DNA of 40,323 nt from a virus. Taxonomy: Duplodnaviria; Heunggongvirae; Uroviricota; Caudoviricetes. A program made the position numbers and the translations under genes. Location of the stretch: IMG/VR virus record IMGVR_UViG_2695420876_000014; one strand, given 5' to 3'. This document shows positions 2,386 to 23,029 of this stretch, one piece after another; the stretch's first letter is position 1; each line of letters opens with the position of its first letter. Below the pieces are notes generated by a model. The model made no database searches, was not told where the DNA came from, and was given only the letters and a program-made list of their open reading frames with translations.

Positions 2386-3030
2386 TCAAAGTGGAGGCTC
2401 TGGTAGCGGCATCCAGTGTGACGGCTCACATACCCCCTCAACACCGTTCATGTAAAAGAATTGAAATAACCCTTTACCTTTGTGAAACCCTACCATCTGC
2501 TCTTTTGTGTCTGAACAATAAACCAAAACATCTTCTTCGTTTGGCATTCGCTCACTACAGCTTATCCAACTATCCGGAGTTACCGGAGAGTTGGTTGACG
2601 TTTCCGCAATATCCCGAAAATTATTGGTTGACGAATTCTTGTTTTCCCGAAAGTTTCCGGACTGAAGCATGGCGGCGCGGCAGGCGCTCCATCCAGCTGT
2701 TCGCCCAAGCGCGTAAACTTCAGATGGCTCAAGATAATCAATGTCATGCCCGTCCTCATCGTCGTTCTCAGGTAATGCAGCAGGTACTACCGGTACTGGC
2801 GGAGCGGCGTAGACTTCAATAATCCCATTATCAATAGGCCACTCTCCATCCTTGATGTAGTCACTTGTACCGTCAACTTGCTGTTCTGCAATGTGGAATG
2901 CACCAACTGGCTCTGCCTCAAGCGAGGCCAGTGCAATTCGTGCCAGTTCCATTTGTTCGCCACGGGTAAGCCCGTTTTCAAGCGGATTTTTAATGAATAA
3001 TTCGATACGTTCTTTGGTAATAGTGGTCAT
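2386..3030 (-). CDS. DUF551-domain phage protein
   Basis: 214-aa ORF with an acidic middle and a C-terminal segment ending SHWMPLPEPP, characteristic of DUF551 proteins in enterobacterial prophages. Confidence 0.65.
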   Translation of the reverse strand: MTTITKERIELFIKNPLENGLTRGEQMELARIALASLEAEPVGAFHIAEQQVDGTSDYIKDGEWPIDNGIIEVYAAPPVPVVPAALPENDDEDGHDIDYLEPSEVYALGRTAGWSACRAAMLQSGNFRENKNSSTNNFRDIAETSTNSPVTPDSWISCSERMPNEEDVLVYCSDTKEQMVGFHKGKGLFQFFYMNGVEGVCEPSHWMPLPEPPL

Positions 3031-6234: not shown

Positions 6235-6297
6235 AGGATGCTCCTTCTGTTTGATTGCATAACGAAAACGCCTCAAGTGAAGCGTTATTGGTATGCA

Positions 6298-6323
6298 TAT
6301 AAAAAAGCCCTCGCACTGGAGGG
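6298..6323 (-). terminator. rho-independent terminator inside the leftward early operon (tL-like)
   Basis: Minus-strand reading gccctccagtgcgagggc followed by ttttttatat; lies between the ral-like and cIII-like genes. Confidence 0.6.
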
Positions 6324-6460
6324 CAAAGAAGATTTCCAATAATCAGAACAAGTCGGCTCCTGTTTAGTTACGAGCGACATTGCTCCGTGTATTCACTCGT
6401 TGGAATGAATACACAGTGCAGTGTTTATTCTGTTATTTATGCCAAAAATAAAGGCCACTA

Positions 6461-6874: not shown

Positions 6875-7456
6875 ATGAACAACTCATGGTGGCAGGAACT
6901 AATGCATTTTTTCCTGCAAGGAATGACACTTAAACAGTTGATTCATATGCTAATCATCCTGATCATATTGATTATTGTTATGCCGGTAAGCGTAAAAGAA
7001 TGGATAAACCTGCATAATCCAGAAATCCTTCCTCATTACTGGATGTATTACATCCTGTTGTTTTGCGTTAGCTATGTGCTTAACGGCGTTGTTAATTCCG
7101 CTTATCACGCTGTGACTGAAAGAATTGAGGTATTCGCTGCTCAGAAGCGCAAATCTAAAGAAGAAAAATATGTGCAAGATTTGTTTGATTCGTTAACTCT
7201 TGGAGAAAGAGCGTATTTGGCATTCGCTGTAGCCGCTAATAACCAGCTACAAACGGAAAAGGGAGCTCATGAATCAATTTCATTGCTCAAAAAAGGACTC
7301 CTCGTTCGAAGGCCTCCTGCTGTTGGGTATCCTGATACCGACCGTTTTGTTATTCCTGAAAGCTATAGACATGAGTGCTACATTCGGTTTGCCGGGAAGG
7401 CAGACAGCCTTATGGATGAACTTATCGCTCAGGATAAGCATGGCAAAAACAAGTAA
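6875..7456 (+). CDS. sieB: superinfection exclusion protein SieB-like (two N-terminal TM helices)
   Basis: 193 aa with two hydrophobic helices (LIHMLIILIILIIVMPV and YILLFCVSYVLNGVV) and a soluble C-terminal domain; lies in the N-proximal early-left region but on the opposite strand to N. Confidence 0.55.
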   Translation: MNNSWWQELMHFFLQGMTLKQLIHMLIILIILIIVMPVSVKEWINLHNPEILPHYWMYYILLFCVSYVLNGVVNSAYHAVTERIEVFAAQKRKSKEEKYVQDLFDSLTLGERAYLAFAVAANNQLQTEKGAHESISLLKKGLLVRRPPAVGYPDTDRFVIPESYRHECYIRFAGKADSLMDELIAQDKHGKNK

Positions 7457-7472
7457 TTAGCAAATGAATTTA

Positions 7473-7856
7473 TCATCTCGCCGTCAGTTGTTTGGATTTC
7501 CGGTAGCCTGCCGCGTAAATGGCTACGTTTGGAAGACATACACCAGTTTCTGGTTGCTTATGTCCAAACTCATTCGCGTACACAATGGCCGCTCGCTCCA
7601 GATTGCGTCTGTATTCTTTCTGTTGCCAGATCACGTCCTGTGCCATGAACTTAATTGGCTTAGCGTCTTCTATACGCTCAGGCGTTTCGTGAGTACCTTT
7701 AGCCTGAATCTGCGCTCTGCTTAGAGTAGGGCGGTGTAATACTTCTGAACTTATTGCTTCTTCGCGGGCCAGTACGCCGTTAGCTAATGCCTTTACCTTT
7801 AAACGCTCACGACGACGAGAACGTGAATTGCCTTTGAACTGAGTTCTGCGTGTCAT
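7473..7856 (-). CDS. N-like transcription antiterminator with a P22-type arginine-rich motif
   Basis: 127 aa; N-terminus MTRRTQFKGNSRSRRRERLKVKALANG resembles the RNA-binding ARM of P22/phage-21 N proteins; strong SD (aggagg) before the ATG; matching P22-type boxB hairpins found at both nut positions. Confidence 0.75.
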   Translation of the reverse strand: MTRRTQFKGNSRSRRRERLKVKALANGVLAREEAISSEVLHRPTLSRAQIQAKGTHETPERIEDAKPIKFMAQDVIWQQKEYRRNLERAAIVYANEFGHKQPETGVCLPNVAIYAAGYRKSKQLTAR

Positions 7857-8021
7857 ATAGACCTCCTGATGAACTTTGGTGGTGTGGTAGGTGGGAGACC
7901 CATTTCGACCTGTTTCGGCCTACTTCAATTCGGCAATAGTCCCGCAGGCCTCGCCGCTTTACGTGCGACATATTCCCGTCCATGAACCCTTCACCACACC
8001 CCAAAGTTCACTTTGGTTATT

Positions 8022-8036
8022 GCGCTTTGTCAGCGC
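8022..8036 (-). promoter_or_regulatory. nutL boxB hairpin (minus-strand GCGCTGACAAAGCGC)
   Basis: Reverse complement of 8022-8036 is GCGCTGACAAAGCGC, a 5-bp stem with GACAA pentaloop as in P22 boxB; upstream of N in the leftward transcript. No convincing boxA was found next to it. Confidence 0.6.
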
Positions 8037-8107
8037 CGTAGATTCATATTCGAATCGTTGTATATTCACCGCCCTGGTGAGTAGTGCGTCCTGCTGATGG
8101 GTGAACT

Positions 8108-8160
8108 TTATCGGAATGATAAATTAATGGCAATAGCAAAATGATAAATTCTCTTGGTTT
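8108..8160. promoter_or_regulatory. OL/pL region with repeated ATGATAAAT operator-like half-sites
   Basis: ggaatgataaattaatgg and aaaatgataaattctc in an AT-rich gap upstream of nutL and N; the same motif recurs three times between cI and cro. Confidence 0.45.
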
Positions 8161-8330
8161 TCAAATATCGTATTGATTCTTATGGTGTTTTATTTTGTTG
8201 TAGGAATTCGACAGGATAAATAAAGAGATTTGAGGGAGATCTGGATTGCGTTGTTTAGCAAGTTGTATCTATTTATTTTTCAACAAATACAATTGGTTAT
8301 GTGTTTTTAGGTGTGGGGATCGTGAGGCAA

Positions 8331-8354
8331 AGAAAACCCGGCGCTGAGGCCGGG
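8331..8354 (-). terminator. rho-independent terminator ending the cI operon
   Basis: Minus-strand reading cccggcctcagcgccggg followed by ttttcttt, just downstream of the stop at 8363. Confidence 0.7.
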
Positions 8355-8362
8355 TTAATGCG

Positions 8363-8983
8363 TTAATGCTGGGGAGTGATTTTTTTGTTGTCTGTTGGCT
8401 GGGTATTTTGTGGCGGCGCTTGCAAAGTGGAAGGCTGTTGCAAAGGTACGTGGTCTGACTTTAAAGCTGATACCAGCCCGGGAATCGCAACTATTACAGC
8501 GATAATGACACTAAAAATGGCTAATCGTATAGAAATACCCGACTGAACACCACTAATTGCGGTATTAACCCCTGTTATTTGTCCTTGAATTCCTTCGAAT
8601 CTCCCATTAATTGCTTTTATATCGCCAGCAGCGCTATCCATCTTTCCATCGATCTTGGACGATAGAGAGCTTATGGCTGCATTAAGTGATGCAAATTGGA
8701 CATTAACGCTTTCACGAGATAGAGCCATGTCAGCCCTAATGGAAGAAGCAATAGACTCCATCTCTGCTTTATTAGCAGCTAAGCGAGCATCAAGTTCCTC
8801 TCTGCTGATCGTTCCCACTTCTTCCTCCGTTTGTGGCGGTTTTATGTAATTATTTTGCACCTTGGTGGGAGAATTATCAAATTCAGCCTCAAAATCGGAA
8901 CCGCCAACAACCTTCAACCTCCGGCTTTCAGATATGTTGGTGTCTTGCTTTCCATGATTATTTAAATTACTGTCGTCACTCAT
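8363..8983 (-). CDS. tail-anchored coiled-coil membrane protein of unknown function (third gene of the cI operon)
   Basis: 206 aa: polar N-terminus, long Ser/Ala-rich heptad-like middle, one C-terminal TM helix (IRLAIFSVIIAVIVAIPGLVSAL) and a Pro/Gln-rich tail; ATG overlaps the stop of the upstream gene (ATGA). Confidence 0.6.
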   Translation of the reverse strand: MSDDSNLNNHGKQDTNISESRRLKVVGGSDFEAEFDNSPTKVQNNYIKPPQTEEEVGTISREELDARLAANKAEMESIASSIRADMALSRESVNVQFASLNAAISSLSSKIDGKMDSAAGDIKAINGRFEGIQGQITGVNTAISGVQSGISIRLAIFSVIIAVIVAIPGLVSALKSDHVPLQQPSTLQAPPQNTQPTDNKKITPQH

Positions 8984-9468
8984 AATAGCTCTACGGTGAA
9001 AAATGATTCATTTTTATGAAGTTCATTTTTAGGGTCTTCATTATCTTGCAATATCCCTATAACACTATACAGCCCTTTAGCTGGGACCCTAATTTCTTTC
9101 AATGTTACTATTACCTGTCCGCCAACCCCTGTTTCAAAATGGCTATCTTTCGTATCGATGAAAAGTGAAACTGATTCCGAAGAGCCGTCAGGGAATTGAA
9201 TTTCCTCACCTTTTTTTATAATTAGGTGCGCGGGGATTACCATAATACCCAAATTATATCTTGAATTTGGTTTCAACCCGATCATACCAACCCTGAAATC
9301 AATTGATAGCCGCGCAGGAAATTCATTGCATGTAAAATTAAGCGTCGGTTGGTTGGGTTCTTCGCTGCTATCAAATGGGGTTATAAAAGATATTCTTTCT
9401 AAATTAAGTGCCATAAATTCTCCTGCATCGCTGTATGCTCTACGAGCATCTCTGCGATCATCCATCAT
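8980..9468 (-). CDS. hypothetical protein (second gene of the cI operon)
   Basis: 162-aa ORF; a better-supported start is the internal MALNLERISF at 9414 (aggag 8 nt upstream), giving 144 aa; no recognisable domain. Confidence 0.55.
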   Translation of the reverse strand: MMDDRRDARRAYSDAGEFMALNLERISFITPFDSSEEPNQPTLNFTCNEFPARLSIDFRVGMIGLKPNSRYNLGIMVIPAHLIIKKGEEIQFPDGSSESVSLFIDTKDSHFETGVGGQVIVTLKEIRVPAKGLYSVIGILQDNEDPKNELHKNESFFTVELL

Positions 9469-9484
9469 CCAAACGTCTCTTCAC

Positions 9485-9826
9485 TCATCCGAAGAAGCAG
9501 CAATCCGGGTCAGCACGCACAAGCTCAAGCGCATCAGTCAGCGAAAGTTCAGTACTGTACTGATGCCATTTCATATCCTTCCGCATCCAATAGATTTTCC
9601 ATCTATCCAGAGAACGTATGTACTTGATTCTTGCTGATGGCAGGATGTTTGTTTCACCTGGGTTGCCCTGCCACACGGGGCGCTGTTCGCCGATATCTAT
9701 CGTTTGGTCATTGATGCTATAAACAATATCCAGTTCATTGCGGATATGTTCAGGCGGCCTTATGCTTTCAATGAATTGGTGAACTTCTTTTTTGACCGCT
9801 TGATATTCAAGGTCAGTGAACGCCAT
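9485..9826 (-). CDS. hypothetical protein (first gene downstream of cI)
   Basis: 113-aa ORF MAFTDLEYQAVKKEVHQFIESIRPPEH... with a strong SD (gaggagg) 4 nt before the ATG; 60 nt downstream of the cI stop on the same strand. Confidence 0.6.
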   Translation of the reverse strand: MAFTDLEYQAVKKEVHQFIESIRPPEHIRNELDIVYSINDQTIDIGEQRPVWQGNPGETNILPSARIKYIRSLDRWKIYWMRKDMKWHQYSTELSLTDALELVRADPDCCFFG

Positions 9827-9886
9827 CTATCCTCCTCACCCAAACGTTTCTTCTGGCCACTGGTTACCAGCTATGTGACGATGAAG

Positions 9887-10591
9887 TCACGAACTTTTCA
9901 GCCACTCCCTTGCCTCGATGTCATCCAGATGGCGAGATTGCTTCAGAATACCAGCTACATACTCCACCTTTGCTACTTGATGATAAGGCAACGTTATAGG
10001 CCTGTGATCCTGGTTAATGCTTGTAAATTGGTATTCTCCATCTCTGTCATAGCCAAGAACCTTAATCATGTTGTGTCCTTCAACGGTTCTGACAAACACC
10101 TCATCACCCGGGAATACTTTGGTGTTAGGCTCAATGAGTACATATTCTCCTGATTTTATTCTGGGCCACATGCTGTCTCCTTTCACACGAAGACCAAAGG
10201 CATCTGGATCATCGCTATAAATTTTGAGCCACCCATCGCGCTCTTCGGTCATCTCGATGGCACCATCAACACCAAGAATTGCCTCACCAACCACGCGCAC
10301 TAACCCTTTTCTTACCTGACCGACAAAAGTTAAAGAATCTGAGCATGATGCAATTGGTGTTACATCATGTACCAAATCAAGCCACCCATTAGGTAACCCA
10401 AGCGCGGCTTCAAATTTTCTTGCTAGTTTATCCCCTATGTTTCGAGTGCTTTTTTCACCGGAGACTTGCGTGAGTTGAGAAGGGCTAACCCCAAGCTTAT
10501 CGGCAAAGCTTGCATTAGTGTTACCCGCGATTTTTTTATGCTCATCTAGCAAAAACGCCAGATTCGATTTGCGAATATCTTTGTTTTCCAT
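9887..10591 (-). CDS. cI: CI-like prophage repressor (N-terminal HTH, C-terminal S24 LexA-type autopeptidase)
   Basis: 234 aa; HTH-like FADKLGVSPSQLTQV and a C-terminal domain with VKGDSMWPRIKSGEYVLIEPN (catalytic Ser, with Lys downstream) typical of RecA-cleavable repressors; divergent from the cro-like gene. Confidence 0.9.
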   Translation of the reverse strand: MENKDIRKSNLAFLLDEHKKIAGNTNASFADKLGVSPSQLTQVSGEKSTRNIGDKLARKFEAALGLPNGWLDLVHDVTPIASCSDSLTFVGQVRKGLVRVVGEAILGVDGAIEMTEERDGWLKIYSDDPDAFGLRVKGDSMWPRIKSGEYVLIEPNTKVFPGDEVFVRTVEGHNMIKVLGYDRDGEYQFTSINQDHRPITLPYHQVAKVEYVAGILKQSRHLDDIEAREWLKSS

Positions 10592-10611
10592 CTCACAATT
10601 TTCCCTCTATT

Positions 10612-10672
10612 TAGCAAATGGATAAATACGCAATATGATAAATTTACATTGCGGATTATTTATCAAAATGGT
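10612..10672. promoter_or_regulatory. OR/pR/pRM region with three GATAAAT-type operator half-sites
   Basis: aaatggataaatacg, aatatgataaatttac and, inverted, attatttatcaaaatgg lie between the divergent cI and cro starts. Confidence 0.5.
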
Positions 10673-10704
10673 AAAGTTGTTCTGTGTGATAAACGGAGGC
10701 ACTA

Positions 10705-10938
10705 ATGAGTAATGAACTACTACGCTGGCGAAAAGAGGCTTCTAGTGAGGAATGGAAGCGACTCGCCGCATTAGCGAAAACTTCAGTTGGCTATCTTGAC
10801 CAGATTGCATATGGATTTCGAAGAGCTTCCCCTGATAAAGCGAATGCAATCGAAGAAGCTACTCGTAATTTCACGGGTTATAAACCTGTGAAAAAGGAAA
10901 ACCTAGTGTTCGTATCGCGTAGAGCATCGGCTGCATAA
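10705..10938 (+). CDS. cro: Cro-like HTH regulator
   Basis: 77-aa ORF divergent from cI, preceded by an SD (ggagg); contains an HTH-like segment (AKTSVGYLDQIAYGFRRAS). Confidence 0.55.
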   Translation: MSNELLRWRKEASSEEWKRLAALAKTSVGYLDQIAYGFRRASPDKANAIEEATRNFTGYKPVKKENLVFVSRRASAA

Positions 10939-10945
10939 GTAACAC

Positions 10946-10991
10946 CGCTCTTTTCACAATGGACATTCGTCCTACGTCGCTGACAAAGCGA
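10946..10991 (+). promoter_or_regulatory. nutR: boxA (cgctctttt) and P22-type boxB (tcgctgacaaagcga)
   Basis: boxA-like CGCTCTTTT at 10946-10954; hairpin with GACAA loop at 10977-10991; located between cro and cII on the rightward transcript. Confidence 0.6.
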
Positions 10992-11076
10992 GTCCCAATA
11001 TATCTGACCAACTAAGGCCATATGCGTTTCCACGCATACCTTTCAACTAGCTATTCACTATTGGAAATCTTAAGAA

Positions 11077-11376
11077 ATGGAACAAACAAGTTACAGCAAA
11101 CTATCACAGCGAGAAATTGATCGCGCTGAAACTGATTTACTCATCAACCTGTCAACGCTTACCCAGCGCGGTCTGGCAAAGATGATTGGCTGTCATGAAT
11201 CGAAGATAAGCAGAACGGACTGGAGATTTATTGCTTCGGTCTTGTGTGCTTTCGGAATGGCATCAGACATCAGTCCGATTAGCAGGGCTTTTAAGTATGC
11301 GCTTGATGAACTCACCAATAAAAAACGCCCGGTGTGCAAGACCGAGCGTTCTGAACAAATCAAGATGGAATTCTGA
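11077..11376 (+). CDS. cII: CII-like transcriptional activator
   Basis: 99 aa; C-terminus ELTNKKRPVCKTERSEQIKMEF closely resembles lambda CII (ILTNKKRPAATERSEQIQMEF); sits between cro and O. Confidence 0.8.
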   Translation: MEQTSYSKLSQREIDRAETDLLINLSTLTQRGLAKMIGCHESKISRTDWRFIASVLCAFGMASDISPISRAFKYALDELTNKKRPVCKTERSEQIKMEF

Positions 11377-11408
11377 GGTCATTACTGGATCTATCAACAG
11401 GAGTCATT

Positions 11409-12347
11409 ATGACAAATACAGCAAAAATACTCAACTTCGGCAGAAGTAACTTTGCCGGACAGGAGCGTAATGTGGCAGATCTCGATGATGGTTACGCCAG
11501 ACTATCAAATATGCTGATTGAGGCTTATTCAGGCGCAGATCTGACCAAGCGACAGTTTAAAGTGCTGCTTGCCATTCTGCGTAAAACCTATGGGTGGAAT
11601 AAACCAATGGACAGAATCACCGATTCTCAACTTAGCGAGATTACAAAGTTACCTGTCAAACGGTGCAATGAAGCCAAGTTAGAACTCGTCAGAATGAATA
11701 TTATCAAGCAGCAAGGCGGCATGTTTGGACCAAATAAAAACATCTCAGAATGGTGCATCCCTCAAAACGAGGGAGGTTCCCCTAAAATGAGGGACATCCC
11801 TCAAAACGAGGGAAAATCCCCTAAAACGAGGGATAAAACATCCCTCAAATTAGGGGATTGCTATCCCTCAAAACAGGGGGACACAAAAGACACTATTACA
11901 AAAGAAAAAAGAAAAGATTATTCGTCCGAGAATTCTGGCGAATCCTCTGACCAGCCAGAAAACGATCTTTCTGTGGTTAAACCGGATGCTGCAATTCAGA
12001 GCGGCAGCAAGTGGGGAACAGCAGAAGACCTGACCGCCGCAGAGTGGATGTTTGACATGGTGAAGACCATCGCACCATCAGCCAGAAAACCGAATTTTGC
12101 AGGGTGGGCTAACGATATCCGCCTGATGCGTGAACGTGACGGACGTAACCACCGCGACATGTGCGTGCTGTTCCGCTGGGCATGCCAGGACAACTTCTGG
12201 TCCGGTAACGTGCTAAGTCCGGCCAAACTCCGCGACAAGTGGACCCAACTCGAAATCAACCGTAACAAGCAACAGGCAGGCGTGACAGCCGGAAAACCAA
12301 AACTCGACCTGACAAACACTGACTGGATTTACGGGGTGGATTTATGA
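11409..12347 (+). CDS. O: replication initiator O (lambda type)
   Basis: 312 aa; MTNTAKILNFGRSNFAGQERNVADLDDGYARLSNML... recognised as lambda O, with an extra repeat-encoded segment (IPQNEGGSPKMRD) in the origin-binding region. Confidence 0.92.
   Translation: MTNTAKILNFGRSNFAGQERNVADLDDGYARLSNMLIEAYSGADLTKRQFKVLLAILRKTYGWNKPMDRITDSQLSEITKLPVKRCNEAKLELVRMNIIKQQGGMFGPNKNISEWCIPQNEGGSPKMRDIPQNEGKSPKTRDKTSLKLGDCYPSKQGDTKDTITKEKRKDYSSENSGESSDQPENDLSVVKPDAAIQSGSKWGTAEDLTAAEWMFDMVKTIAPSARKPNFAGWANDIRLMRERDGRNHRDMCVLFRWACQDNFWSGNVLSPAKLRDKWTQLEINRNKQQAGVTAGKPKLDLTNTDWIYGVDL
11757..11880. repeat. replication origin iterons inside the O gene, about six ~18-bp direct repeats of (A)TCCCTCAAAACGAGGGA
   Basis: Repeats begin near 11757, 11777, 11796, 11817, 11840 and 11862; each is an internal palindrome (tccctc...gaggga); an A-rich tract follows (11881-11925). 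Confidence 0.85.
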
Positions 12348-13045
12348 AAAACATCGCCGCACAGATGGTTAATTTTGACCGTGAGCAGATGCGTCGGATC
12401 GCCAACAACATGCCGGAACAGTACGACGAAAAGCCGCAGGTACAGCAGGTAGCGCAGATCATCAACGGTGTGTTCAGCCAGTTACTGGCAACTTTCCCGG
12501 CGAGCCTGGCTAACCGTGACCAGAACGAACTGAACGAAATCCGCCGCCAGTGGGTTCTGGCTTTCCGGGAAAACGGGATCACCACAATGGAACAGGTTAA
12601 CGCAGGAATGCGCGTAGCCCGTCGGCAGAATCGACCATTTCTGCCATCACCCGGGCAGTTTGTTGCATGGTGCCGGGAAGAAGCATCCGTTATCGCCGGA
12701 CTGCCAAACGTCAGCGAGCTGGTTGATATGGTTTACGAGTATTGCCGGAAGCGTGGCCTGTATCCGGATGCGGAGTCTTATCCGTGGAAATCAAACGCGC
12801 ACTACTGGCTGGTCACCAACCTGTATCAGAACATGCGGGCCAATGCGCTTACTGATGCGGAATTACGCCGTAAGGCTGCCGATGAACTGACCTGTATGAC
12901 AGCGCGAATTAACCGTGGTGAGACGATACCTGAACCAGTAAAACAACTTCCTGTCATGGGCGGCAGACCTCTAAATCGTGTTCAGGCGCTGGCGAAGATC
13001 GCAGAAATTAAAGCTAAGTTCGGACTGAAAGGAGCAAGTGTATGA
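12344..13045 (+). CDS. P: replication protein P (DnaB helicase loader, lambda type)
   Basis: 233 aa; MKNIAAQMVNFDREQMRRIANNMPEQYDEKPQVQQ... recognised as near-identical to lambda P; start overlaps the O stop. Confidence 0.95.
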   Translation: MKNIAAQMVNFDREQMRRIANNMPEQYDEKPQVQQVAQIINGVFSQLLATFPASLANRDQNELNEIRRQWVLAFRENGITTMEQVNAGMRVARRQNRPFLPSPGQFVAWCREEASVIAGLPNVSELVDMVYEYCRKRGLYPDAESYPWKSNAHYWLVTNLYQNMRANALTDAELRRKAADELTCMTARINRGETIPEPVKQLPVMGGRPLNRVQALAKIAEIKAKFGLKGASV

Positions 13046-13332
13046 CGGGCAAAGAGGCAATTATTCATTACCTGGGGACGCATAATAGCTTCTGTGCGCC
13101 GGACGTTGCCGCGTTAACAGGCGCAACAGTAACCAGCATAAATCAGGCCGCGGCTAAAATGGCACGGGCAGGTCTTCTGGTTATCGAAGGTAAGGTCTGG
13201 CGAACGGTGTATTACCGGTTTGCTACCAAGGAAGAACGGGAAGGAAAGATGAGCACGAACCTGATTTTTAAGGAGTGTTGCCAGAGTGCCGCGATGAAAC
13301 GGGTATTGGCGGTATATGGAGTTAAAAGATGA
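13042..13332 (+). CDS. ren: Ren (Rex exclusion escape protein)
   Basis: 96 aa; MTGKEAIIHYLGTHNSFCAPDVAALTGATVTSINQAAAKMARAGLL... recognised as lambda Ren. Confidence 0.9.
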   Translation: MTGKEAIIHYLGTHNSFCAPDVAALTGATVTSINQAAAKMARAGLLVIEGKVWRTVYYRFATKEEREGKMSTNLIFKECCQSAAMKRVLAVYGVKR

Positions 13333-13356
13333 CCATCTACATCACTGAGCTAATAA

Positions 13357-13389
13357 CAGGCCTGCTGGTAATCGCAGGCCTTTTTATTT
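13357..13389 (+). terminator. rho-independent terminator after ren (tR2-like)
   Basis: Hairpin aggcctgc...gcaggcct followed by tttttattt. Confidence 0.7.
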
Positions 13390-13404
13390 GGGGGAGAGTA
13401 AATC

Positions 13405-13611
13405 GTGGCTGAGTTAATTTTCTCTGCATTGAGGATTCTCGGTGCTATGTGGATGGTGTCGACGTTCATTGCGGTTGTCGGAAGTTTTGTCCGGTTGGTA
13501 GGCGAAGGTAAAGACCTGGTGGGTGTGCTTTTCGGTAGCATTCTCCTGTGGGTGATTATCGGTGTTGCGCCTGTCGCTGTAGCAAAAATGGCGTGGCGTT
13601 TTGTGAGTTGA
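13405..13611 (+). CDS. small two-TM membrane protein (GTG start)
   Basis: 68 aa, almost entirely hydrophobic; an SD (ggagag) precedes the GTG; sits immediately after the terminator. Confidence 0.4.
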   Translation: MAELIFSALRILGAMWMVSTFIAVVGSFVRLVGEGKDLVGVLFGSILLWVIIGVAPVAVAKMAWRFVS

Positions 13612-13628
13612 ACTGAGGATAAGTATCG

Positions 13629-13967
13629 ATGGACGAATCAAGAAAGCAGTTTGAAGAAAGTTGGTTGCGACGTGGAGGCGAATCCTCAGACCTTATCCGT
13701 TACCCTGAAAATCACCATGAAATTGGCAGCGGTAATATTGGTGGTCAATACGTGATGGACGATGTTCAAGGCCACTGGCAAACGTGGCAGGCATCGCGAG
13801 CAGCTATTGAACTGGATATCGACTGGCCCGAATCGAATGACAACTTTTGGAAAGGTGGCGAAGAAGGCGCTTATGCGATGGGGCATGAGGATGGGAAGGA
13901 CAAAACGGTAATTGCAGTGATGAAAGCCATCAGGGCCGCAGGAATCAAAGAAAAGAATTTCGATTAA
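13629..13967 (+). CDS. hypothetical nin-region protein
   Basis: 112-aa ORF with an SD (gagga); no family recognised. Confidence 0.5.
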   Translation: MDESRKQFEESWLRRGGESSDLIRYPENHHEIGSGNIGGQYVMDDVQGHWQTWQASRAAIELDIDWPESNDNFWKGGEEGAYAMGHEDGKDKTVIAVMKAIRAAGIKEKNFD

Positions 13968-14099
13968 GCAAATATCACTTCAATAAATCGCTTTTAAGGC
14001 ATCACAATCGCTCTGTGGTGAGGTAAGCACGTGCAAGGCATGCCGATAAGCAGCGAGAATGAAAAATGCGTCAGAATGCGTTTGAGGAGGTTTTAAGAA

Positions 14100-14315
14100 A
14101 TGAGTACGATAGCTGAGCTTGTCAGGGCTAATTTTCGTGAAGAGTTGGTGCGTTGGTATCGGTATCGTTCATCGTCCAGTTTGCCGCTTGATGAGTTGTA
14201 TGAGCATTCACCTGCCGCACGACGCTATCCGCGTGACCGTGTTCTTCGACGGTTGTTCAAACTCAACAATGAGTTTCAGCGCAACAGAATTATCCGGAGT
14301 CTGGATTTTAAGTGA
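14100..14315 (+). CDS. hypothetical small nin-region protein
   Basis: 71-aa ORF preceded by a strong SD (gaggagg). Confidence 0.5.
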   Translation: MSTIAELVRANFREELVRWYRYRSSSSLPLDELYEHSPAARRYPRDRVLRRLFKLNNEFQRNRIIRSLDFK

Positions 14316-14325
14316 AGGAGTGAGC

Positions 14326-14562
14326 ATGAGCGACCTATCATTAACCCAGCCAAAGCTAAAAGAATGTCCGTTTTGCGGCGGTAATGCTCGTCTGTGGGTT
14401 GAGGCCGGAATAAATATTGATGTGTGGGGCTATGCAGAATGTGACCTCTGTGAAGCCAGGGGGGCATGGGCACCATCAGTTGCTGCGGCGGCTGAAAAAT
14501 GGAACCGGAGAGCAGGAGATGAAGCAAACCTTTCTGCTTCGCAACGAAGCAATCAGAAATAA
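14326..14562 (+). CDS. Lar-family restriction alleviation protein (zinc-ribbon)
   Basis: Track ORF 14119..14562 trimmed to MSDLSLTQPKLKECPFCGGNARLW... (SD aaggag); the CPFCGG...C..C pattern is typical of Lar-like proteins; overlaps the ninB start by 44 nt. Confidence 0.55.
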   Translation: MSDLSLTQPKLKECPFCGGNARLWVEAGINIDVWGYAECDLCEARGAWAPSVAAAAEKWNRRAGDEANLSASQRSNQK

Positions 14563-14965
14563 CGCCATAGACGCCATTCTCTCACTACCCATCGACGACA
14601 AGTCACCCCACGAAGTCCACGTTAAAGAACCCAAGCGCAGCAAAGCGCAGAATGACCGTATGTGGCCGATGCTGAACGATGTTTCGCGTCAGGTGCTATG
14701 GCATGGTCAACGGCTGGCGCCGGAAGACTGGAAAGACCTGTTCACTGCCCTGTGGCTTAAGACCAAAAAACTGGAGCAACGAAGTGTGCCTGGTATCGAC
14801 GGTGGCGTTGTCATGCTTGGCGTGCGTACCAGCAAAATGCGGAAGGCCAGCATGACTGAGCTTATCGAAATCATGTTCTGGTTCGGCTCAGAGCGCAACG
14901 TGCGGTGGAGTGATGACTCCTGGCGAGAGTATGAATGGTCACAACGAAAAGGGAGAGCTGCATGA
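14519..14965 (+). CDS. ninB: NinB/Orf family recombination protein
   Basis: Track ORF 14417..14965 trimmed to MKQTFLLRNEAIRNNAIDAILSLP...; resembles lambda NinB (...DQNRKLWACLGDVSRQVEWHGRWL...). Confidence 0.8.
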   Translation: MKQTFLLRNEAIRNNAIDAILSLPIDDKSPHEVHVKEPKRSKAQNDRMWPMLNDVSRQVLWHGQRLAPEDWKDLFTALWLKTKKLEQRSVPGIDGGVVMLGVRTSKMRKASMTELIEIMFWFGSERNVRWSDDSWREYEWSQRKGRAA

Positions 14966-15489
14966 CTATCAAATCAAATACGCCATCACACGACAAGGAC
15001 TGCTGGCAAACGCCGCTTTGGCTTTTTGATGCACTGGATATTGAGTTTGGATTCTGGCTGGATTCGGCAGCGAGCGACAAAAATGCTCTGTGTGCTCACT
15101 GGCTAACTGAGGCCGACGACGCGCTCAATTCTGAGTGGGTAAGCCACGGTGCAATCTGGAATAACCCACCGTACAGCAATATCAGGCCGTGGGTGGAAAA
15201 AGCCGCTGAGCAGTGCATACGACAGCGACAGACGGTAGTGATGCTTGTGCCAGAGGATATGTCAGTCGGATGGTTCAGCAAGGCTCTGGAGAGTGTCGAC
15301 GAAGTTCGCATTATCACTGATGGACGGATTAATTTTATCGAACCATCGACAGGGCTGGAGAAGAAGGGAAACAGCAAAGGCTCCATGCTGCTGATTTGGC
15401 GACCGTTCATCAGTCCTCGACGGATGTTTACTACCGTATCCAAAGCGGCATTGATGGCGATCGGGCAGGGCGTCAGGAGGGCGGAATGA
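14962..15489 (+). CDS. phage DNA N6-adenine methyltransferase (Dam-like)
   Basis: Start re-assigned to [25 protein letters not shown]... (SD aagggagag; ATGA overlap with the ninB stop); contains the NPPY catalytic motif ([10 protein letters not shown]). Confidence 0.8.
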
Positions 15490-15668
15490 GGCGACAGCAA
15501 CGAAGTATCACCGACATAATCTGCGAAAACTGCAAATACCTTCCAACGAAACGCTCCAGAAATAAACGCAAGCCAATCCCAAAAGAATCTGACGTAAAAA
15601 CCTTCAACTACACGGCTCACCTGTGGGATATCCGGTGGCTTAGAGAACGTGCGAGGAAAACAAGGTGA
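15486..15668 (+). CDS. ninE: NinE
   Basis: 60-aa reading [60 protein letters not shown] recognised as lambda NinE; ATGA overlap with the methyltransferase stop. Confidence 0.8.
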
Positions 15669-15835
15669 TTGACCAAAATCGAAGTTACGAACAAGGAAGT
15701 GTCGAGCGAGCTTTAACGTGCGCTAACTGCGGTCAGAAGCTGCATGTGCTGGAAGTTCACGTGTGCTCCGATTGCTGCGCAGAACTGATGAGCGATCCGA
15801 ATAGCTCAATGTACGAGGAAGAAGACGATGAATGA
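15665..15835 (+). CDS. ninF: NinF (GTG start; below the 60-aa cutoff of the ORF track)
   Basis: Hand translation from the GTG at 15665 gives (M)[55 protein letters not shown], resembling lambda NinF. Confidence 0.7.
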
Positions 15836-16550
15836 GTTAATAAATGGCAATGCCATCAAAATGACAAGCATTGAAATCGCTGAGTTGGTGGGTAAGCGCC
15901 ATGACAATGTGAAACGTACCATAGAAACGCTGGCTAAAAATGGTGTTATCCGGCTTCCTCAAATTGAGGTTTCCGAAAGAATCAATAACTTAGGGTTCAA
16001 TGTTCAGTACGAGCATTACGTCTTCGAGGGCGAACAAGGTAAGCGAGACAGTATTGTCGTTGTTGCCCAGTTGTCGCCAGAGTTCACCGCTCGCCTTGTT
16101 GACCGCTGGCGAGATCTTGAAGAAGCTGCGGTTAATATCCCCAAAACGCTACCGGAAGCGTTGCGCCTTGCTGCCGATCTTGCTGAGCAGAAAATGCAAC
16201 TGGAAAACCAGCTCGCAATTGTCGCACCTAAAGTTGAGTTTGCCGATCGCGTTGGCGAGGCCAGCGGAATTTTGATTGGAAACTTTGCAAAGGTTGTTGG
16301 AATTGGTCCAAACAAACTGTTTGCGTGGATGCGCGATCACAAAATCCTTATTGCTTCAGGTTCCCGGCGCAATGTGCCAATGCAGGAATATATGGAGCGC
16401 GGCTATTTCACAGTGAAAGAAACAGCGGTCAACACAAATCACGGAATACAGATATCGTTCACCACAAAAATCACCGGGCGTGGTCAACAGTGGCTGACCA
16501 GAAAGCTGCTCGATAACAGAATGCTGAAAGTAACAGGGGAGGCTGCTTAA
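15828..16550 (+). CDS. Rha-N / KilAC-domain antirepressor-like protein
   Basis: 240 aa; N-terminus ...MTSIEIAELVGKRHDNVKRTIETL... matches the Rha regulatory family and the C-terminal half looks like a KilAC/ANT domain. Confidence 0.65.
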   Translation: MNELINGNAIKMTSIEIAELVGKRHDNVKRTIETLAKNGVIRLPQIEVSERINNLGFNVQYEHYVFEGEQGKRDSIVVVAQLSPEFTARLVDRWRDLEEAAVNIPKTLPEALRLAADLAEQKMQLENQLAIVAPKVEFADRVGEASGILIGNFAKVVGIGPNKLFAWMRDHKILIASGSRRNVPMQEYMERGYFTVKETAVNTNHGIQISFTTKITGRGQQWLTRKLLDNRMLKVTGEAA

Positions 16551-16840
16551 TGGCTAACCTACGCAAAGAAGCGCGCGGCAGAGAATGCCAGGTACGTATT
16601 TACGGCGTATGCAATGGCAATCCTGAAACTACAGTTCTGGCACATTACCGGATGGCTGGAATTTGCGGAACTGGAATGAAGCCTGACGACCTGATCGGCG
16701 CATGGGCTTGTAGCGCGTGTCACGATGAAATCGACCGACGCACCCATAATCTCGACAACAAAGACGCCAGACTTTATCACCTCGAAGGCGTGATCAGGAC
16801 GCAGGCGATCCTGCTGAAGGAGGGGAAGATTAAGCCATGA
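16550..16840 (+). CDS. DUF1364 (YbcO-like) putative zinc-binding nuclease
   Basis: 96 aa with conserved Cys/His (CQVRIYGVC...CSACHDEID); commonly sits upstream of rusA in lambdoid prophages. Confidence 0.65.
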   Translation: MANLRKEARGRECQVRIYGVCNGNPETTVLAHYRMAGICGTGMKPDDLIGAWACSACHDEIDRRTHNLDNKDARLYHLEGVIRTQAILLKEGKIKP

Positions 16841-17199
16841 AAGAATATCAGTTTGTGCTTCCTTACCCGCCGTCGGTGAACACCTACTGGCGAAGACGGG
16901 GAAGCCAATACTACATCAGCGATAAAGGCCAGAAATACCGAAAAGACGTTCAGCAAATCATCCGCCAACTCAAGTTAGACATTTTCACCAAATCACGACT
17001 CCGTATCAAAGTCATCGCAGACGTTCCAGACTCCCGCCGCCGCGACCTCGATAACATCCTGAAAGGTTTACTCGACTCCCTTATCCACGCCGGATTTGCG
17101 GAAGACGACGAGCAATTCGATGACATTCGCGTAATTCGTGGCGTGAAAGTACCAGGCGGAAGGCTTGGAATAAAAATCACCGAACTGGAGAACGTATGA
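16837..17199 (+). CDS. rusA: Holliday junction resolvase RusA
   Basis: 120 aa; MKEYQFVLPYPPSVNTYWRRRG... with acidic catalytic residues (RRRDLDN), typical RusA. Confidence 0.9.
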   Translation: MKEYQFVLPYPPSVNTYWRRRGSQYYISDKGQKYRKDVQQIIRQLKLDIFTKSRLRIKVIADVPDSRRRDLDNILKGLLDSLIHAGFAEDDEQFDDIRVIRGVKVPGGRLGIKITELENV

Positions 17200-17384
17200 A
17201 CGCCACAATTCAAACGATACCAGAGCTTCTTATCTAGACACGAGGCAATCAGACCGAAGTGGCAAGGATGCTTTCCTGCGCAAGAGGAACAGTGCTCAAG
17301 TACAACCGAGACAGCAAAGGCGAGCGTCACGTAATAGTTAACGGCGTCCTGATGGTCAAACAGGGCAAAAGGGGAAGGCCATGA
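17196..17384 (+). pseudogene. ninH: NinH-like HTH gene interrupted by an in-frame TAG at codon 14
   Basis: Frame from the ATG at 17196 reads MNATIQTIPELLI-stop-TRGNQTEVARMLSCARGTVLKYNRDSKGERHVIVNGVLMV...; resembles lambda NinH (...IPDMLVEAYGNQTEVARRLKCSRGTVRKY...); the TAG is at 17235-17237. Confidence 0.5.
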
Positions 17385-18004
17385 GACTCGAAAGCGTAGC
17401 TAAATTTCATTCGCCAAAAAGCCCGATGATGAGCGACTCACCACGGGCTACGGCTTCTGACTCTCTTTCCGGTACTGATGTGATGGCTGCTATGGGGATG
17501 GCGCAATCACAAGCCGGATTCGGAATGGCTGCATTCTGCGGTAAGCATGAACTCAGCCAGAACGACAAACAAAAGGCTATCAACTATCTGATGCAATTTG
17601 CACACAAGGTATCGGGGAAATACCGTGGTGTGGCAAAGCTCGAAGGAAATACTAAGGCAAAGGTACTGCAAGTGCTCGCAACATTCGCTTATGCGGATTA
17701 TTGCCGTAGTGCTGCGACGCCGGGAGCAAGATGCAGAGATTGTCACGGTACAGGCCGTGCGGTTGATATAGCCAAAACGGAGCAGTGGGGGAGAGTTGTT
17801 GAGAAAGAGTGCGGAAGATGCAAAGGCGTCGGCTATTCAAGGATGCCAGCAAGCGCCGCATATCGCGCTGTAACGATGCTAATCCCAAACCTTACTCAAC
17901 CCACCTGGTCACGCACTGTTAAGCCGCTGTATGACGCTCTGGTGGTGCAATGCCACAAGGAAGAGTCAATCGCAGACAATATTTTGAATGCGGTCACACG
18001 TTAG
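17381..18004 (+). CDS. Q: late-gene antiterminator Q (lambda type)
   Basis: 207 aa; MRLESVAKFHSPKSPMMSDSPRATASDSLSG... recognised as near-identical to lambda Q; the lambda-like pR' and qut region follows. Confidence 0.95.
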   Translation: MRLESVAKFHSPKSPMMSDSPRATASDSLSGTDVMAAMGMAQSQAGFGMAAFCGKHELSQNDKQKAINYLMQFAHKVSGKYRGVAKLEGNTKAKVLQVLATFAYADYCRSAATPGARCRDCHGTGRAVDIAKTEQWGRVVEKECGRCKGVGYSRMPASAAYRAVTMLIPNLTQPTWSRTVKPLYDALVVQCHKEESIADNILNAVTR

Positions 18005-18046
18005 CAGCATGATTGCCACGGATGGCAACATATTAACGGCATAATA

Positions 18047-18075
18047 TTGACTTTTTGAATAAAGTTGGGTAAATT
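18047..18075 (+). promoter_or_regulatory. late promoter pR' (-35 ttgact, 17-bp spacer, -10 taaatt) with the Q utilisation site just downstream
   Basis: ttgactttttgaataaagttgggtaaatttgactcaacgatggg matches my recollection of lambda pR'/qut. Confidence 0.8.
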
Positions 18076-18218
18076 TGACTCAACGATGGGTTAATTCGCT
18101 CGTTGTGGTAGTGAGATGAAAAGAGGCGGCTCTTACTCCCGATTCCGCCTAGTTGGTCACTTCGACGTATCGTCTGGAACTCCAACCATCGCAGGCTGAG
18201 AGGTCTGCAAAATGCAAT

Positions 18219-18276
18219 CCCGAAACAGTTCGCAGGTAATAGTTAGAGCCTGCATAACGGTTTCGGGATTTTTTAT
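18219..18276 (+). terminator. tR' terminator (3' end of the short 6S late transcript)
   Basis: cccgaaac...gtttcggg hairpin followed by attttttat, as in lambda tR'. Confidence 0.8.
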
Positions 18277-18691
18277 GTCTGTGCAACAGGTAAGATCATT
18301 TGTAGAGTTCGACTCTCTACCGTGGGCTTTTTCCCGCGATGCGAGCCATAAATGCTCTTTCCGTTGTGCTGAATTAAGCGAATACCGGAAGCAGAACCGG
18401 ATCACCAAATGCGTACAGGCGTCATCGCCGCCCAGCAACAGCACAACCCAAACTGAGCCGTAGCCACTGGCTATCCTGAACTCATCAGTGATAGTTATGC
18501 TGCGGCCTTCTACGCATGACCTTCGTGAAAGCGGGTGGCATGAGGCTGCGCTAACAACCTCCTGCCGTTTTGCCCGTGCATATCGGTCACGAACAAATCT
18601 GATTACTAAACACAGTAGCCTGGATTTGTTCTATCAGTAATCGACCTTATTCCTAATTAAATAGAGCAAATCCCCTTATTGGGGGTAAGAC

Positions 18692-19015
18692 ATGAAGATG
18701 CCAGAAAAACATGACCTGTTAGCCGCCATTCTCGCGGCAAAGGAACAAGGCATCGGGGCAATCCTTGCGTTTGCAATGGCGTACCTTCGCGGCAGATATA
18801 ATGGCGGTGCGTTTACAAAAACAGTAATCGACGCAACGATGTGCGCCATTATCGCCTGGTTCATTCGTGACCTTCTCGACTTCGCTGGACTAAGTAGCAA
18901 TCTCGCTTATATAACGAGCGTGTTCATCGGCTACATCGGTACTGACTCGATTGGTTCGCTTATCAAACGCTTCGCTGCTAAAAAAGCCGGAGTAGAAGAT
19001 GGTGGAAATCAGTAA
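18692..19015 (+). CDS. S: holin S (class I, dual-start MKM)
   Basis: 107 aa; [39 protein letters not shown]... recognised as lambda S. Confidence 0.95.
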
Positions 19016-19475
19016 TCAACGTAAGGCGTTCCTCGATATGCTGGCGTGGTCAGAGGGAACTGATAACGGACGTCAGAAAACCAGAAATCATGGTTATGAC
19101 GTCATTGTTGGCGGAGAGCTATTCACTGATTACTCCGATCACCCTCGCAAACTTGTCACGCTAAACCCAAAACTCAAATCAACAGCAGCCGGACGTTACC
19201 AGCTTCTTTCCCGTTGGTGGGATGCCTACCGTAAGCAGCTTGGTCTGAAAGACTTCTCTCCCAAAAGTCAGGACGCTGTGGCATTGCAGCAGATTAAAGA
19301 GCGTGGCGCTTTACCGATGATTGATCGCGGTGATATACGTCAGGCAATCGACCGTTGCAGCAATATTTGGGCTTCAATGCCTGGGGCTGGTTACGGTCAG
19401 TTCGAGCATAAGGCTGACAGCCTGATTGCAAAATTCAAAGAAGCAGGCGGAACGGTCAGAGAGATTGAGGTATGA
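18999..19475 (+). CDS. R: endolysin R (lytic transglycosylase)
   Basis: 158 aa; ...[43 protein letters not shown]... recognised as lambda R. Confidence 0.95.
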
Positions 19476-19909: not shown

Positions 19910-19945
19910 TCGGGCGATGAAAACCAAAAAAAACAGGAGCAATAC

Positions 19946-20221: not shown

Positions 20222-20446
20222 TCATTACAAAGCCCATCTACGGGTGGGCTTGATAATGAAACCGGAATTTATTCTGGGAAACCAGTTACGGCAGTACAGC
20301 GAAACAACCCAAGCCAGTAAGTGGGGAAATAACACTGGCAGCCACTGAAAGATGAACCTCCAGCCTTATGGCAAAAAAGATTCTTTGTGGTGGCGGACTG
20401 ATGGAAAGACATCCTAATCAAGCAACCACTCTACAGGGTCATAATT

Positions 20447-21173: not shown

Positions 21174-21175
21174 AC

Positions 21176-23028: not shown

Positions 23029-23029
23029 T

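What the first reader, a model, noticed from the sequence alone, without database searches (positions are those of the whole stretch)
8022..8036. P22-type boxB hairpin at nutL matches the arginine-rich N protein, but no boxA is evident
The minus-strand sequence GCGCTGACAAAGCGC is a 5-bp stem with GACAA pentaloop, as in P22 boxB, and the N-like protein has an N-terminal ARM of the P22/phage-21 kind, so ligand and RNA site agree. I could not find a CGCTCTT-type boxA within ~80 nt on the 5' side, unlike nutR, where boxA and boxB are both present.
Basis: partly seen in the sequence, partly recalled or inferred. Interest (0 to 1): 0.4.

Follow-up and report, generated by a model that had tools for sequence, protein, structure and literature searches.

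The report
H-19B-type nutL site without boxA
The hairpin is the real RNA landing site (nutL boxB) for this phage's N antiterminator, and its lack of a boxA is the normal, already described state of the H-19B/933W/HK97 type of N system, so the finding is correct but ordinary.

Summary
GCGCTGACAAAGCGC lies at 8036..8022 (-), at +63..+77 of the pL transcript and 166 nt upstream of the N start codon. It is identical to the P22 nutL boxB. A second copy with a compensating outer pair (TCGCTGACAAAGCGA, 10977..10991) sits in nutR behind a boxA, CGCTCTTTT.

No boxA precedes the nutL boxB. The best boxA-like 9-mer, CGCACTACT (8088..8080), is no better than chance. It is homologous to lambda leader +11..+19, which is not lambda's boxA.

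The region is not new. From +1 to about +103 it is identical to phage H-19B, 2 nt different from 933W, and one deletion different from HK97. N is 97-99% identical to theirs.

In my survey, none of the 52 distinct leaders of H-19B-type N genes had a boxA. All 70 P22-type N loci had GCTCTTTAA 11 nt before the same boxB. Within the H-19B type, N's arginine-rich motif (ARM) and boxB change together, while the flanking spacer (ACAACG, small hairpin, CUACG) stays fixed. nutR boxA is itself decaying in relatives.

This fits Neely & Friedman (2000). As I recall their abstract, H-19B N needs neither BOXA, NusB nor S10. The element is already known and of low interest.

The parts
8105..8133 (-). Predicted pL promoter: -35 TTGCCA at 8133..8128, 17-nt spacer, -10 TAAAGT at 8110..8105. 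The operator-like 10-mer AATTTATCAT lies at 8125..8116 and 8150..8141 and recurs in OR at 10644..10635.
   Evidence: Consensus scan. 10-mer search. The sequence is identical to the H-19B region upstream of N.
8080..8098 (-). Conserved 5' end of the pL transcript, AUCAGCAGGACGCACUACU. +1 is A8098 by homology with lambda pL +1 at 35582. It contains the boxA-like 9-mer CGCACTACT (8088..8080). The 933W GenBank 'nutL' feature starts there, but the 9-mer is homologous to lambda leader CGCACTGAC, which is not lambda's boxA.
   Evidence: Alignment of pL leaders of lambda, P22, HK620, VT2-Sakai, H-19B, 933W and HK97. 933W annotation. Chance test.
8066..8080 (-). Hairpin 1, UCACC-agggc-GGUGA. It is homologous to the lambda hairpin CACC-augaa-GGUG that precedes lambda boxA. 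Its 3' arm plus the following AAUA occupies the register where nutR has boxA (CGGTGAATA against CGCTCTTTT, 4 of 9 match).
   Evidence: Folds. Among 31 distinct leaders the stem is nearly invariant and the loop varies. Register comparison.
8037..8065 (-). nutL spacer: AUAUACAACG, then hairpin 2 GAUUC-gaauau-GAAUC (8056..8041), then UACG. The layout ACAAYG, small hairpin, CUACG, boxB is the same as in this phage's nutR and in VT2-Sakai nutL. Hairpin 2 is the nutL counterpart of the published H-19B 'reducer' dyad.
   Evidence: Folds. The flanks TACAACGATTC and GAATCTACG are invariant while the hairpin loop varies across 31 distinct leaders. nutR comparison.
8022..8036 (-). nutL boxB, GCGCU-GACAA-AGCGC: the RNA hairpin bound by the ARM of N.
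   Evidence: Identical to P22 nutL boxB. ARM and boxB change together in relatives.
7993..8016 (-). Local hairpin CCAAAG-ugaa-CUUUGG (8016..8001), followed by the boxC-like GGUGUGGU. Positions 8011..7993 form the 5' arm of a long-range N-leader helix.
   Evidence: Folds. Duplex analysis of 38 leader variants.
7869..7888 (-). 3' arm of the long-range N-leader helix, ACCACACC-a-CCAAAGUUCAU. It ends one nt before the N Shine-Dalgarno AGGAGG (7867..7862). It is the homologue of the lambda N-leader stem.
7473..7856 (-). N gene, 127 aa, H-19B/933W/HK97 type. The ARM is at residues 9-27.
   Evidence: Pfam PF25694 N_peptide, E = 4.8e-15. 97-99% identity to N of 933W, HK97 and relatives.
10946..10991 (+). 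nutR: boxA CGCTCTTTT (10946..10954), CACAAUG, hairpin GGAC-auuc-GUCC (10961..10972), UACG, boxB UCGCU-GACAA-AGCGA (10977..10991).
6267..6324 (-). Two leftward intrinsic-terminator candidates downstream of N (6324..6307 and 6286..6267). They are the likely first targets of N-modified RNA polymerase.
   Evidence: Consensus scan only.

Best explanation
This is the nutL site of an H-19B/933W/HK97-type N antitermination module, carried here by a P22-like phage. RNA polymerase starting at pL (+1 = 8098) transcribes a 62-nt leader and then boxB (+63..+77). The boxB hairpin folds, and the arginine-rich N terminus of N, whose gene lies 166 nt downstream, binds it. Through NusA, which in lambda binds the nut spacer, and through N's C-terminal region, the complex is handed to the elongating polymerase. 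The polymerase then reads through the leftward terminators, with candidates near 6300. Unlike lambda and P22, this nut type works without a boxA, and so without the NusB-S10 clamp. Its constant features are boxB and the spacer ACAAYG, small hairpin, CUACG. Shown here: the anatomy, the identity to H-19B, the family-wide absence of boxA, and the joint variation of ARM and boxB. Inferred or taken from the literature: N binding, the role of NusA, and independence from NusB and S10.
For: The exact P22-type boxB lies in the pL transcript, with a second copy at nutR that has a compensating outer pair, G-C to U-A. The leader from +1 to about +103 is identical to H-19B and near-identical to 933W and HK97. 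N is 97-99% identical to N of 933W, HK97 and relatives and hits Pfam N_peptide. In the survey, 152 fetched H-19B-type loci (some contigs fetched twice) gave 52 distinct leaders. None has GCTCTT[TA] in the first 110 nt. All 70 P22-type loci have GCTCTTTAA at +36 or +40. Within the H-19B-type N body, three ARM types go with three boxB types, and each phage uses the same loop type at nutL and nutR. The exception is SPN9CC, whose loops differ by one base. Spacer flanks are invariant and the hairpin loops vary. The same flanks occur at nutR around a different hairpin. nutR boxA is CGCTATTTT in H-19B, which is the C5A change that in lambda sharply lowers NusB-NusE affinity (PMC3177189). It is CACTTCCAA in g341c and SPN9CC. 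[quoted passage not shown] Neely & Friedman 2000 (PMID 11123680; title seen) reported that H-19B N needs NusA but not NusB or S10 and that BOXA is not required. The content of that abstract is from my memory, because the paper is not held.
Against: Nothing here measures antitermination. The published boxA-independence was, as far as I recall, shown with nutR constructs, so nutL function in this phage is inferred. The stems of hairpins 1 and 2 never vary, so there is no covariation proof that they fold. The leader 9-mer CGCACTACT keeps lambda boxA positions G2, C5 and U6, so weak NusB/S10 binding cannot be excluded from sequence alone. The 933W GenBank 'nutL' feature begins there.
Confidence: 0.88

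Rival explanations
1. nutL does have a boxA, but a degenerate one. The 9-mer CGCACTACT at +11..+19 (8088..8080) recruits NusB-S10 weakly. The two spacer hairpins shorten the effective distance to boxB, so the site is a conventional boxA-spacer-boxB nut site.
For: The 933W GenBank 'nutL' feature starts exactly at this 9-mer. It retains lambda boxA positions 1-3, 5 and 6. The 'reducer' idea allows long spacers.
Against: The match is no better than in 71-86% of shuffled leaders. The 9-mer aligns with lambda CGCACTGAC, and more loosely with the shared AUCAGCAGGACGC leader of P22, HK620 and VT2-Sakai. All of these carry a separate canonical boxA further downstream. It varies within the family (CGCATTACT, CGTATTACT, TGCACCACT, CACACTACT). 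It differs from boxA at positions 4, 7 and 8, and all eight boxA bases make base-specific contacts.
Confidence: 0.07
2. The hairpin is a relic, or nutL is weak or non-functional. Antitermination of the left operon would then be poor, or would rely on something other than this site.
For: In lambda, boxA mutations impair N action, so a boxA-less site could be thought defective.
Against: The boxA-less nutL is conserved in 52 distinct leaders from E. coli and Salmonella phages. Its boxB tracks the ARM of the adjacent N gene, which implies selection for N binding at this very site. Viable, studied phages (H-19B, 933W, HK97) carry the same sequence.
Confidence: 0.04
3. The main role of the hairpin at this position is control of N translation. 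In lambda, an N complex at nutL represses N translation and RNase III cleavage of the leader relieves it. Antitermination would then be secondary.
For: A conserved long-range helix starts 11 nt after boxB and ends next to the N Shine-Dalgarno sequence. It is homologous to the lambda N-leader stem.
Against: This role is compatible with antitermination rather than an alternative to it. The same boxB type occurs at nutR, where there is no N gene.
Confidence: 0.01

Closest known systems
nutL of phage H-19B (AF034975), 933W (AF125520, annotated 'nutL') and HK97 (NC_002167)
   Same: The pL leader from +1 to about +103 is identical to H-19B. It differs from 933W at 2 nt and from HK97 by a 1-nt deletion. 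boxB, both spacer hairpins and the N protein (97-99% identical) are the same, and the pL/operator region is the same as in H-19B.
   Different: Nothing of substance differs in nutL. The middle of the N leader follows the 933W/HK97 version rather than the H-19B version. The rest of this phage is P22/CUS-3/Sf101-like, not Stx-phage-like.
nutL of Salmonella phage P22
   Same: The boxB is identical (GCGCUGACAAAGCGC). The ARM is related, the last ~30 residues of N are similar (67% identity), the transcript starts the same way (AUCAGCAGGACGC), and the long-range N-leader helix is shared.
   Different: P22 has a canonical boxA, GCTCTTTAA, 11 nt before boxB in all 70 loci surveyed, and it has no spacer hairpin. 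The central part of N is unrelated.
nutL of phage lambda
   Same: Same position in the pL transcript, same first 16 nt, the same hairpin 1 (CACC-loop-GGUG), a boxC-like GGUGUG element and the N-leader helix.
   Different: Lambda has boxA CGCUCUUA directly after hairpin 1 and a 9-nt unstructured spacer. Its boxB is GCCCU-GAAGA-AGGGC and its N protein is different. Lambda N requires boxA, NusB and S10 (established knowledge; PMC3177189).
nutL of VT2-Sakai-type Stx2 phages
   Same: The same spacer layout: ACAACG, small hairpin, CUACG, boxB.
   Different: It has a canonical boxA, GCTCTTTAA, directly before ACAACG. Its boxB has a GAAA loop, and its N is only 37% identical.

Membership tests
Lambdoid nut site (N-utilisation site) | It lies in the early transcript, downstream of pL and upstream of N and the leftward terminators. 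| tested here: met
   pL predicted at 8133..8105. +1 = 8098 by alignment with lambda +1 at 35582. boxB is at +63..+77. N starts at 7856. Terminator candidates lie near 6300.
Lambdoid nut site (N-utilisation site) | A boxB stem-loop cognate to the ARM of the phage's own N. | tested here: met
   5-bp stem with a GACAA loop. Repeated at nutR. ARM and boxB change together across relatives.
Lambdoid nut site (N-utilisation site) | A boxA, CGCUCUU(U)A, 5' of boxB. | tested here: not met
   No match with 2 or fewer mismatches in the transcript 5' of boxB. The best match is at chance level. At nutR the feature is met. boxA is reported to be dispensable in the H-19B subtype (Neely & Friedman 2000, from memory).
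Lambdoid nut site (N-utilisation site) | N-dependent read-through of downstream terminators. | not testable with these tools
   This needs reporter assays.
H-19B/933W/HK97-type nut site | Sequence identity of the nutL region and N to the type phages. | tested here: met
H-19B/933W/HK97-type nut site | A dyad symmetry ('reducer' hairpin) in the spacer before boxB. | tested here: met
   GAUUC-n6-GAAUC at 8056..8041 and GGAC-n4-GUCC at 10961..10972. Stems are conserved and loops vary.
H-19B/933W/HK97-type nut site | Independence from NusB, S10 and boxA. | not testable with these tools
   Indirect support only: family-wide absence of boxA at nutL and a decaying boxA at nutR.
P22-type nutL | boxA GCTCTTTAA, an 11-nt unstructured spacer, boxB GCGCUGACAAAGCGC, next to a gp24-type N. 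| tested here: not met
   Only the boxB matches. boxA is absent, the segment between hairpin 1 and boxB is 29 nt and contains a hairpin, and the central part of N is unrelated.

The most novel reading that the evidence does not exclude
H-19B-type nut sites may be a distinct boxA-independent class. In it the invariant single-stranded flanks ACAAYG and CUACG, brought together by an exchangeable 'reducer' hairpin, would form the host-factor site (probably for NusA) that replaces the boxA-NusB-S10 clamp. On this reading boxA has been lost completely at nutL and is being lost at nutR.
Probability: 0.3. Interest if true: 0.3.

Novelty: already known. Interest (0 to 1): 0.12.

Why it matters
For annotation, the result places nutL, pL and the N leader of this phage precisely. 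It shows that the early-control module is H-19B-type even though the virion genes are P22-like. More broadly, the survey shows how cleanly boxA presence at nutL follows the type of N protein rather than the type of boxB. Two phage groups use the identical boxB hairpin, one always with boxA and the other never. This matches the published NusB/S10-independence of H-19B N. It also shows that the 'nutL' feature in the 933W GenBank record begins at a conserved leader sequence and not at a boxA homologue. None of this changes current understanding.

Tried and rejected
- Rfam at gathering thresholds found nothing in the window, so no curated family matched the nut region.
- A PDB sequence search with N did not retrieve the P22 N-peptide/boxB entry and gave only a chance hit.
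- BLASTP of N against P22 gp24 aligned only the C-terminal 30 residues, so the ARM comparison was done by hand.
- Neely & Friedman 2000 and the 933W genome paper are not held. Other papers that cite them gave only the titles. The mEpimmI paper was irrelevant.
- ATCTCTTTA at 8229..8221 was rejected as a boxA because it lies upstream of pL and is not in the pL transcript.
- GCGCAATAA, which overlaps the 3' arm of boxB, was rejected as an rrn-style downstream boxA. It has 3 transversion mismatches at core positions.
- Reading the hairpin as an intrinsic terminator was rejected because no T-run follows it (AATAACC).
- The count of structure pairs gave no covariation for hairpins 1, 2 and 4 because their stems never vary. 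The boxB columns are partly out of register there, because some relatives have a 4-nt loop.

Full report

Reading the minus strand gives ...GAATCTACG-GCGCTGACAAAGCGC-AATAACC..., with the 15-mer at 8036..8022. It has a 5-bp stem (GCGCU/AGCGC) and a GACAA loop.

A search allowing 2 mismatches finds only two sites in 40 kb: this one and TCGCTGACAAAGCGA at 10977..10991 (+). Shuffles gave a mean of 0.18 hits. The second copy differs only in the outermost pair, G-C to U-A, which is a compensating change.

The hairpin is predicted in the minimum-energy and centroid folds of both the 81-nt and 254-nt leader. Its pair probabilities are 0.99-1.0.

No CGCTCTTTA-like sequence with 2 or fewer mismatches lies on the minus strand between 8036 and 8220. 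nutR has CGCTCTTTT at 10946..10954.

**2. Context**

- The ORF at 7856..7473 (-) is N. It hits Pfam N_peptide at E = 4.8e-15 and is 97-99% identical to N of 933W, HK97 and relatives.
- Its neighbours are sieB (6875..7456, +), a cI-type repressor (9887..10591, -), cro, and cII (11077..11376).
- A strong terminator at 8356..8335 (-) ends the repressor operon.
- A sigma-70-like promoter follows: -35 at 8133..8128 and -10 at 8110..8105.
- The 10-mer AATTTATCAT occurs twice in this promoter region and once in OR, as expected for operators.
- Aligning pL leaders shows that lambda, P22, HK620, VT2-Sakai, H-19B, 933W, HK97 and the window all begin AUCAGCAGGACGC. In lambda the first A is coordinate 35582. 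I take that as the pL start from memory; the record itself shows only that it lies 9 nt downstream of operator OL1.
- So +1 is A8098 and boxB is +63..+77.
- The virion genes of the window are P22/CUS-3/Sf101-like. This is a P22-like phage carrying an H-19B-type early-control module.

**3. What the region is**

From +1 to about +103 the window is identical to H-19B. It differs from 933W at 2 nt and from HK97 by a 1-nt deletion. The 933W GenBank record annotates the corresponding 67 nt as 'nutL; putative N-utilization leftward'.

The anatomy, is:

| Element | Sequence | Window coordinates |
|---|---|---|
| Leader | +1..+18 | 8098..8081 |
| Hairpin 1 | UCACC-agggc-GGUGA | 8080..8066 |
| Single-stranded segment | AUAUACAAC | 8065..8057 |
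| Hairpin 2 | GAUUC-gaauau-GAAUC | 8056..8041 |
| Single-stranded segment | UACG | 8040..8037 |
| boxB | GCGCU-GACAA-AGCGC | 8036..8022 |

nutR has the same plan behind its boxA: CACAAUG, hairpin GGAC-auuc-GUCC, then UACG and boxB.

**4. Is there a hidden boxA?**

The 933W feature begins at CGCATTACT, which is CGCACTACT in the window (8088..8080). Whoever annotated 933W may have taken this as boxA.

Three results argue against that.

- It has 3 of 8 mismatches to lambda boxA and 4 of 9 to CGCTCTTTA. In shuffles of the 62-nt leader, 71-86% contain an equally good match.
- In the alignment it corresponds to lambda +11..+19, CGCACTGAC. That lies upstream of lambda's hairpin CACC-augaa-GGUG and of the real lambda boxA at +34..+41. 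P22, HK620 and VT2-Sakai share the AUCAGCAGGACGC start and also carry a separate canonical boxA further on.
- It varies within the family.

At the register where nutR, and the VT2-Sakai nutL with the same spacer plan, have boxA, the window has CGGTGAATA. That matches 4 of 9 and has transversions at boxA positions 3, 5, 6 and 7. Part of it lies inside the 3' arm of hairpin 1.

In lambda, transversions at positions 2, 5 or 6 greatly reduce NusB-NusE affinity and N function, and all eight bases are read specifically (PMC3177189). I conclude that nutL has no functional boxA.

**5. Comparative survey**

I fetched loci encoding relatives of this N, of P22 gp24 and of g341c N from IMG/VR, plus named phages. 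For each I extracted the pL leader (scripts).

- **H-19B-type N body (MTRRT...).** There were 152 fetched loci, some contigs fetched twice, giving 52 distinct leaders. None contains GCTCTT[TA] in the first 110 nt.
- **P22-type N.** All 70 loci have GCTCTTTAA at +36 or +40, an 11-nt spacer, and the same boxB, GCGCUGACAAAGCGC.
- **Others.** Lambda, HK620 and VT2-Sakai also have boxA.

So boxA presence at nutL follows the type of N protein and leader, not the boxB.

Within the H-19B type, the ARM and boxB change together:

| ARM | boxB |
|---|---|
| GNSRSRRRERLKAKALANG | GCGCU-GACAA-AGCGC |
| GTSRARRRERLKAKALANG | GCUCc-GUCAA-cGAGC |
| GSAAGRRRERRAALQN... | (C/A)GGCU-GAAA-AGCC(G/U) |

g341c uses the GAAA type at nutR as well. 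Meanwhile the flanks TACAACGATTC and GAATCTACG are invariant in 31 distinct sequences, and variation falls in the two hairpin loops.

This joint variation is the best available evidence, short of an experiment, that the hairpin at 8036..8022 is the N-binding site.

**6. boxA at nutR in the family**

| Phage | Sequence at the nutR boxA position |
|---|---|
| Window, HK97 | CGCTCTTTT |
| H-19B | CGCTATTTT (the C5A change that is deleterious in lambda) |
| g341c, SPN9CC | CACTTCCAA |

A boxA that is absent at nutL and decaying at nutR is what one expects if this N does not use NusB-S10.

That is the published conclusion of Neely & Friedman, Mol Microbiol 38:1074 (2000). [quoted passage not shown] From my memory of the abstract:

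- H-19B N needs NusA but not NusB or S10.
- BOXA is not required.
- The spacer dyad (the 'reducer') works by bringing flanking nucleotides together.

The paper itself is not held, so these details rest on memory.

**7. Mechanism**

- **Shown here:** position in the pL transcript, the fold, identity to a studied system, and the matching of ARM to boxB.
- **Inferred:** N binds boxB as a bent helix, as in the P22 N-peptide/boxB complex (from memory). NusA binds the spacer, as shown for lambda in PMC2724277. The complex loops to the polymerase and suppresses the leftward terminators, with candidates at 6324..6307 and 6286..6267. No NusB-S10/boxA clamp is involved.

**8. Verdict**

The 'missing' boxA is the normal, conserved and already explained state of this nut type.

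- Novelty: already known.
- Interest: low.
- Small additions from this work: the P22-type and H-19B-type groups share one boxB but split cleanly on boxA, and the start of the 933W 'nutL' feature is a conserved leader segment rather than a boxA homologue.

Noticed in passing
window 8011..7993 paired with 7888..7869 (-); local hairpin 8016..8001: A 19-bp long-range helix with one bulged A begins 11 nt after boxB and ends one nt before the N Shine-Dalgarno sequence (leader fold z = -3.45). It is present in 38 distinct leader variants, including lambda, P22 and HK620. The distal arms differ between variants but stay complementary to each other (for example GGUGUGGUG/CACCACACC, GGUGAAUGCAG/CUGUAUUCACC, GAUGCGAUG/CAUCGCAUC). 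Duplex energies are -21 to -36 kcal/mol against shuffle means of -11 to -18. It looks like the homologue of the lambda N-leader RNase III stem, and its 5' arm is the boxC-like GGUGUG element. The local hairpin CCAAAG-ugaa-CUUUGG competes with it. VT2-Sakai lacks it.
   Followed up: partly
L001 (H-19B) cro-cII spacer; L252 (g341c) 2423..2560; L253 (SPN9CC) 2764..2900: nutR boxA is not conserved in this N family. H-19B has CGCTATTTT, the lambda C5A-type change. The Salmonella phages g341c and SPN9CC have CACTTCCAA. The rest of nutR (ACAAYG, GGACAUUCGUCC, UACG, boxB) is kept.
   Followed up: partly
L085/L252 (g341c), L086, L087, L088 (VT2-Sakai), L084/L253 (SPN9CC): boxB variants sit in an otherwise conserved leader. 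One is a true GAAA tetraloop, (C/A/U)GGCU-GAAA-AGCC(G/U/A), paired with ARMs of the GSAAGRRRERRAALQ and GTAASRRRARRANLQ kinds. The other is SPN9CC nutL, GCUCc-GUCAA-cGAGC, with a C-C closing mismatch like P22 boxB-right. SPN9CC nutR instead has a GACAA loop.
   Followed up: partly
L002 3257..3323 (933W, AF125520 9614..9680): The GenBank 'nutL' feature of 933W starts at CGCATTACT. That is the conserved pL leader segment homologous to lambda +11..+19, not a boxA homologue.
   Followed up: yes
window 8363..9826 (-): Three genes occupy the rexAB position between the repressor gene and pL: a DUF3024 protein (9485..9826), a 162-aa protein with no Pfam hit (8980..9468), and a 206-aa protein with a hydrophobic C-terminal segment (8363..8983). 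A strong terminator at 8356..8335 ends the group. They are probably prophage-expressed cargo. Function unknown.
   Followed up: no
window 8001..33000: The replication and virion genes match P22-like podoviruses (E212, CUS-3, Kapi1, Sf101; 95-97% over 44-65% of the query). The immunity and N module is H-19B/Stx-phage/HK97-type. This is a clear mosaic junction, and the homology break between different immunity regions falls at or just before pL +1.
   Followed up: partly
window 8116..8125, 8141..8150, 10635..10644 (-): The exact 10-mer AATTTATCAT occurs twice around the pL -35/-10 region and once in the cI-cro intergenic region. These are probably repressor operator half-sites. A fourth copy at 7467..7476 (+) is probably chance.
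   Followed up: no
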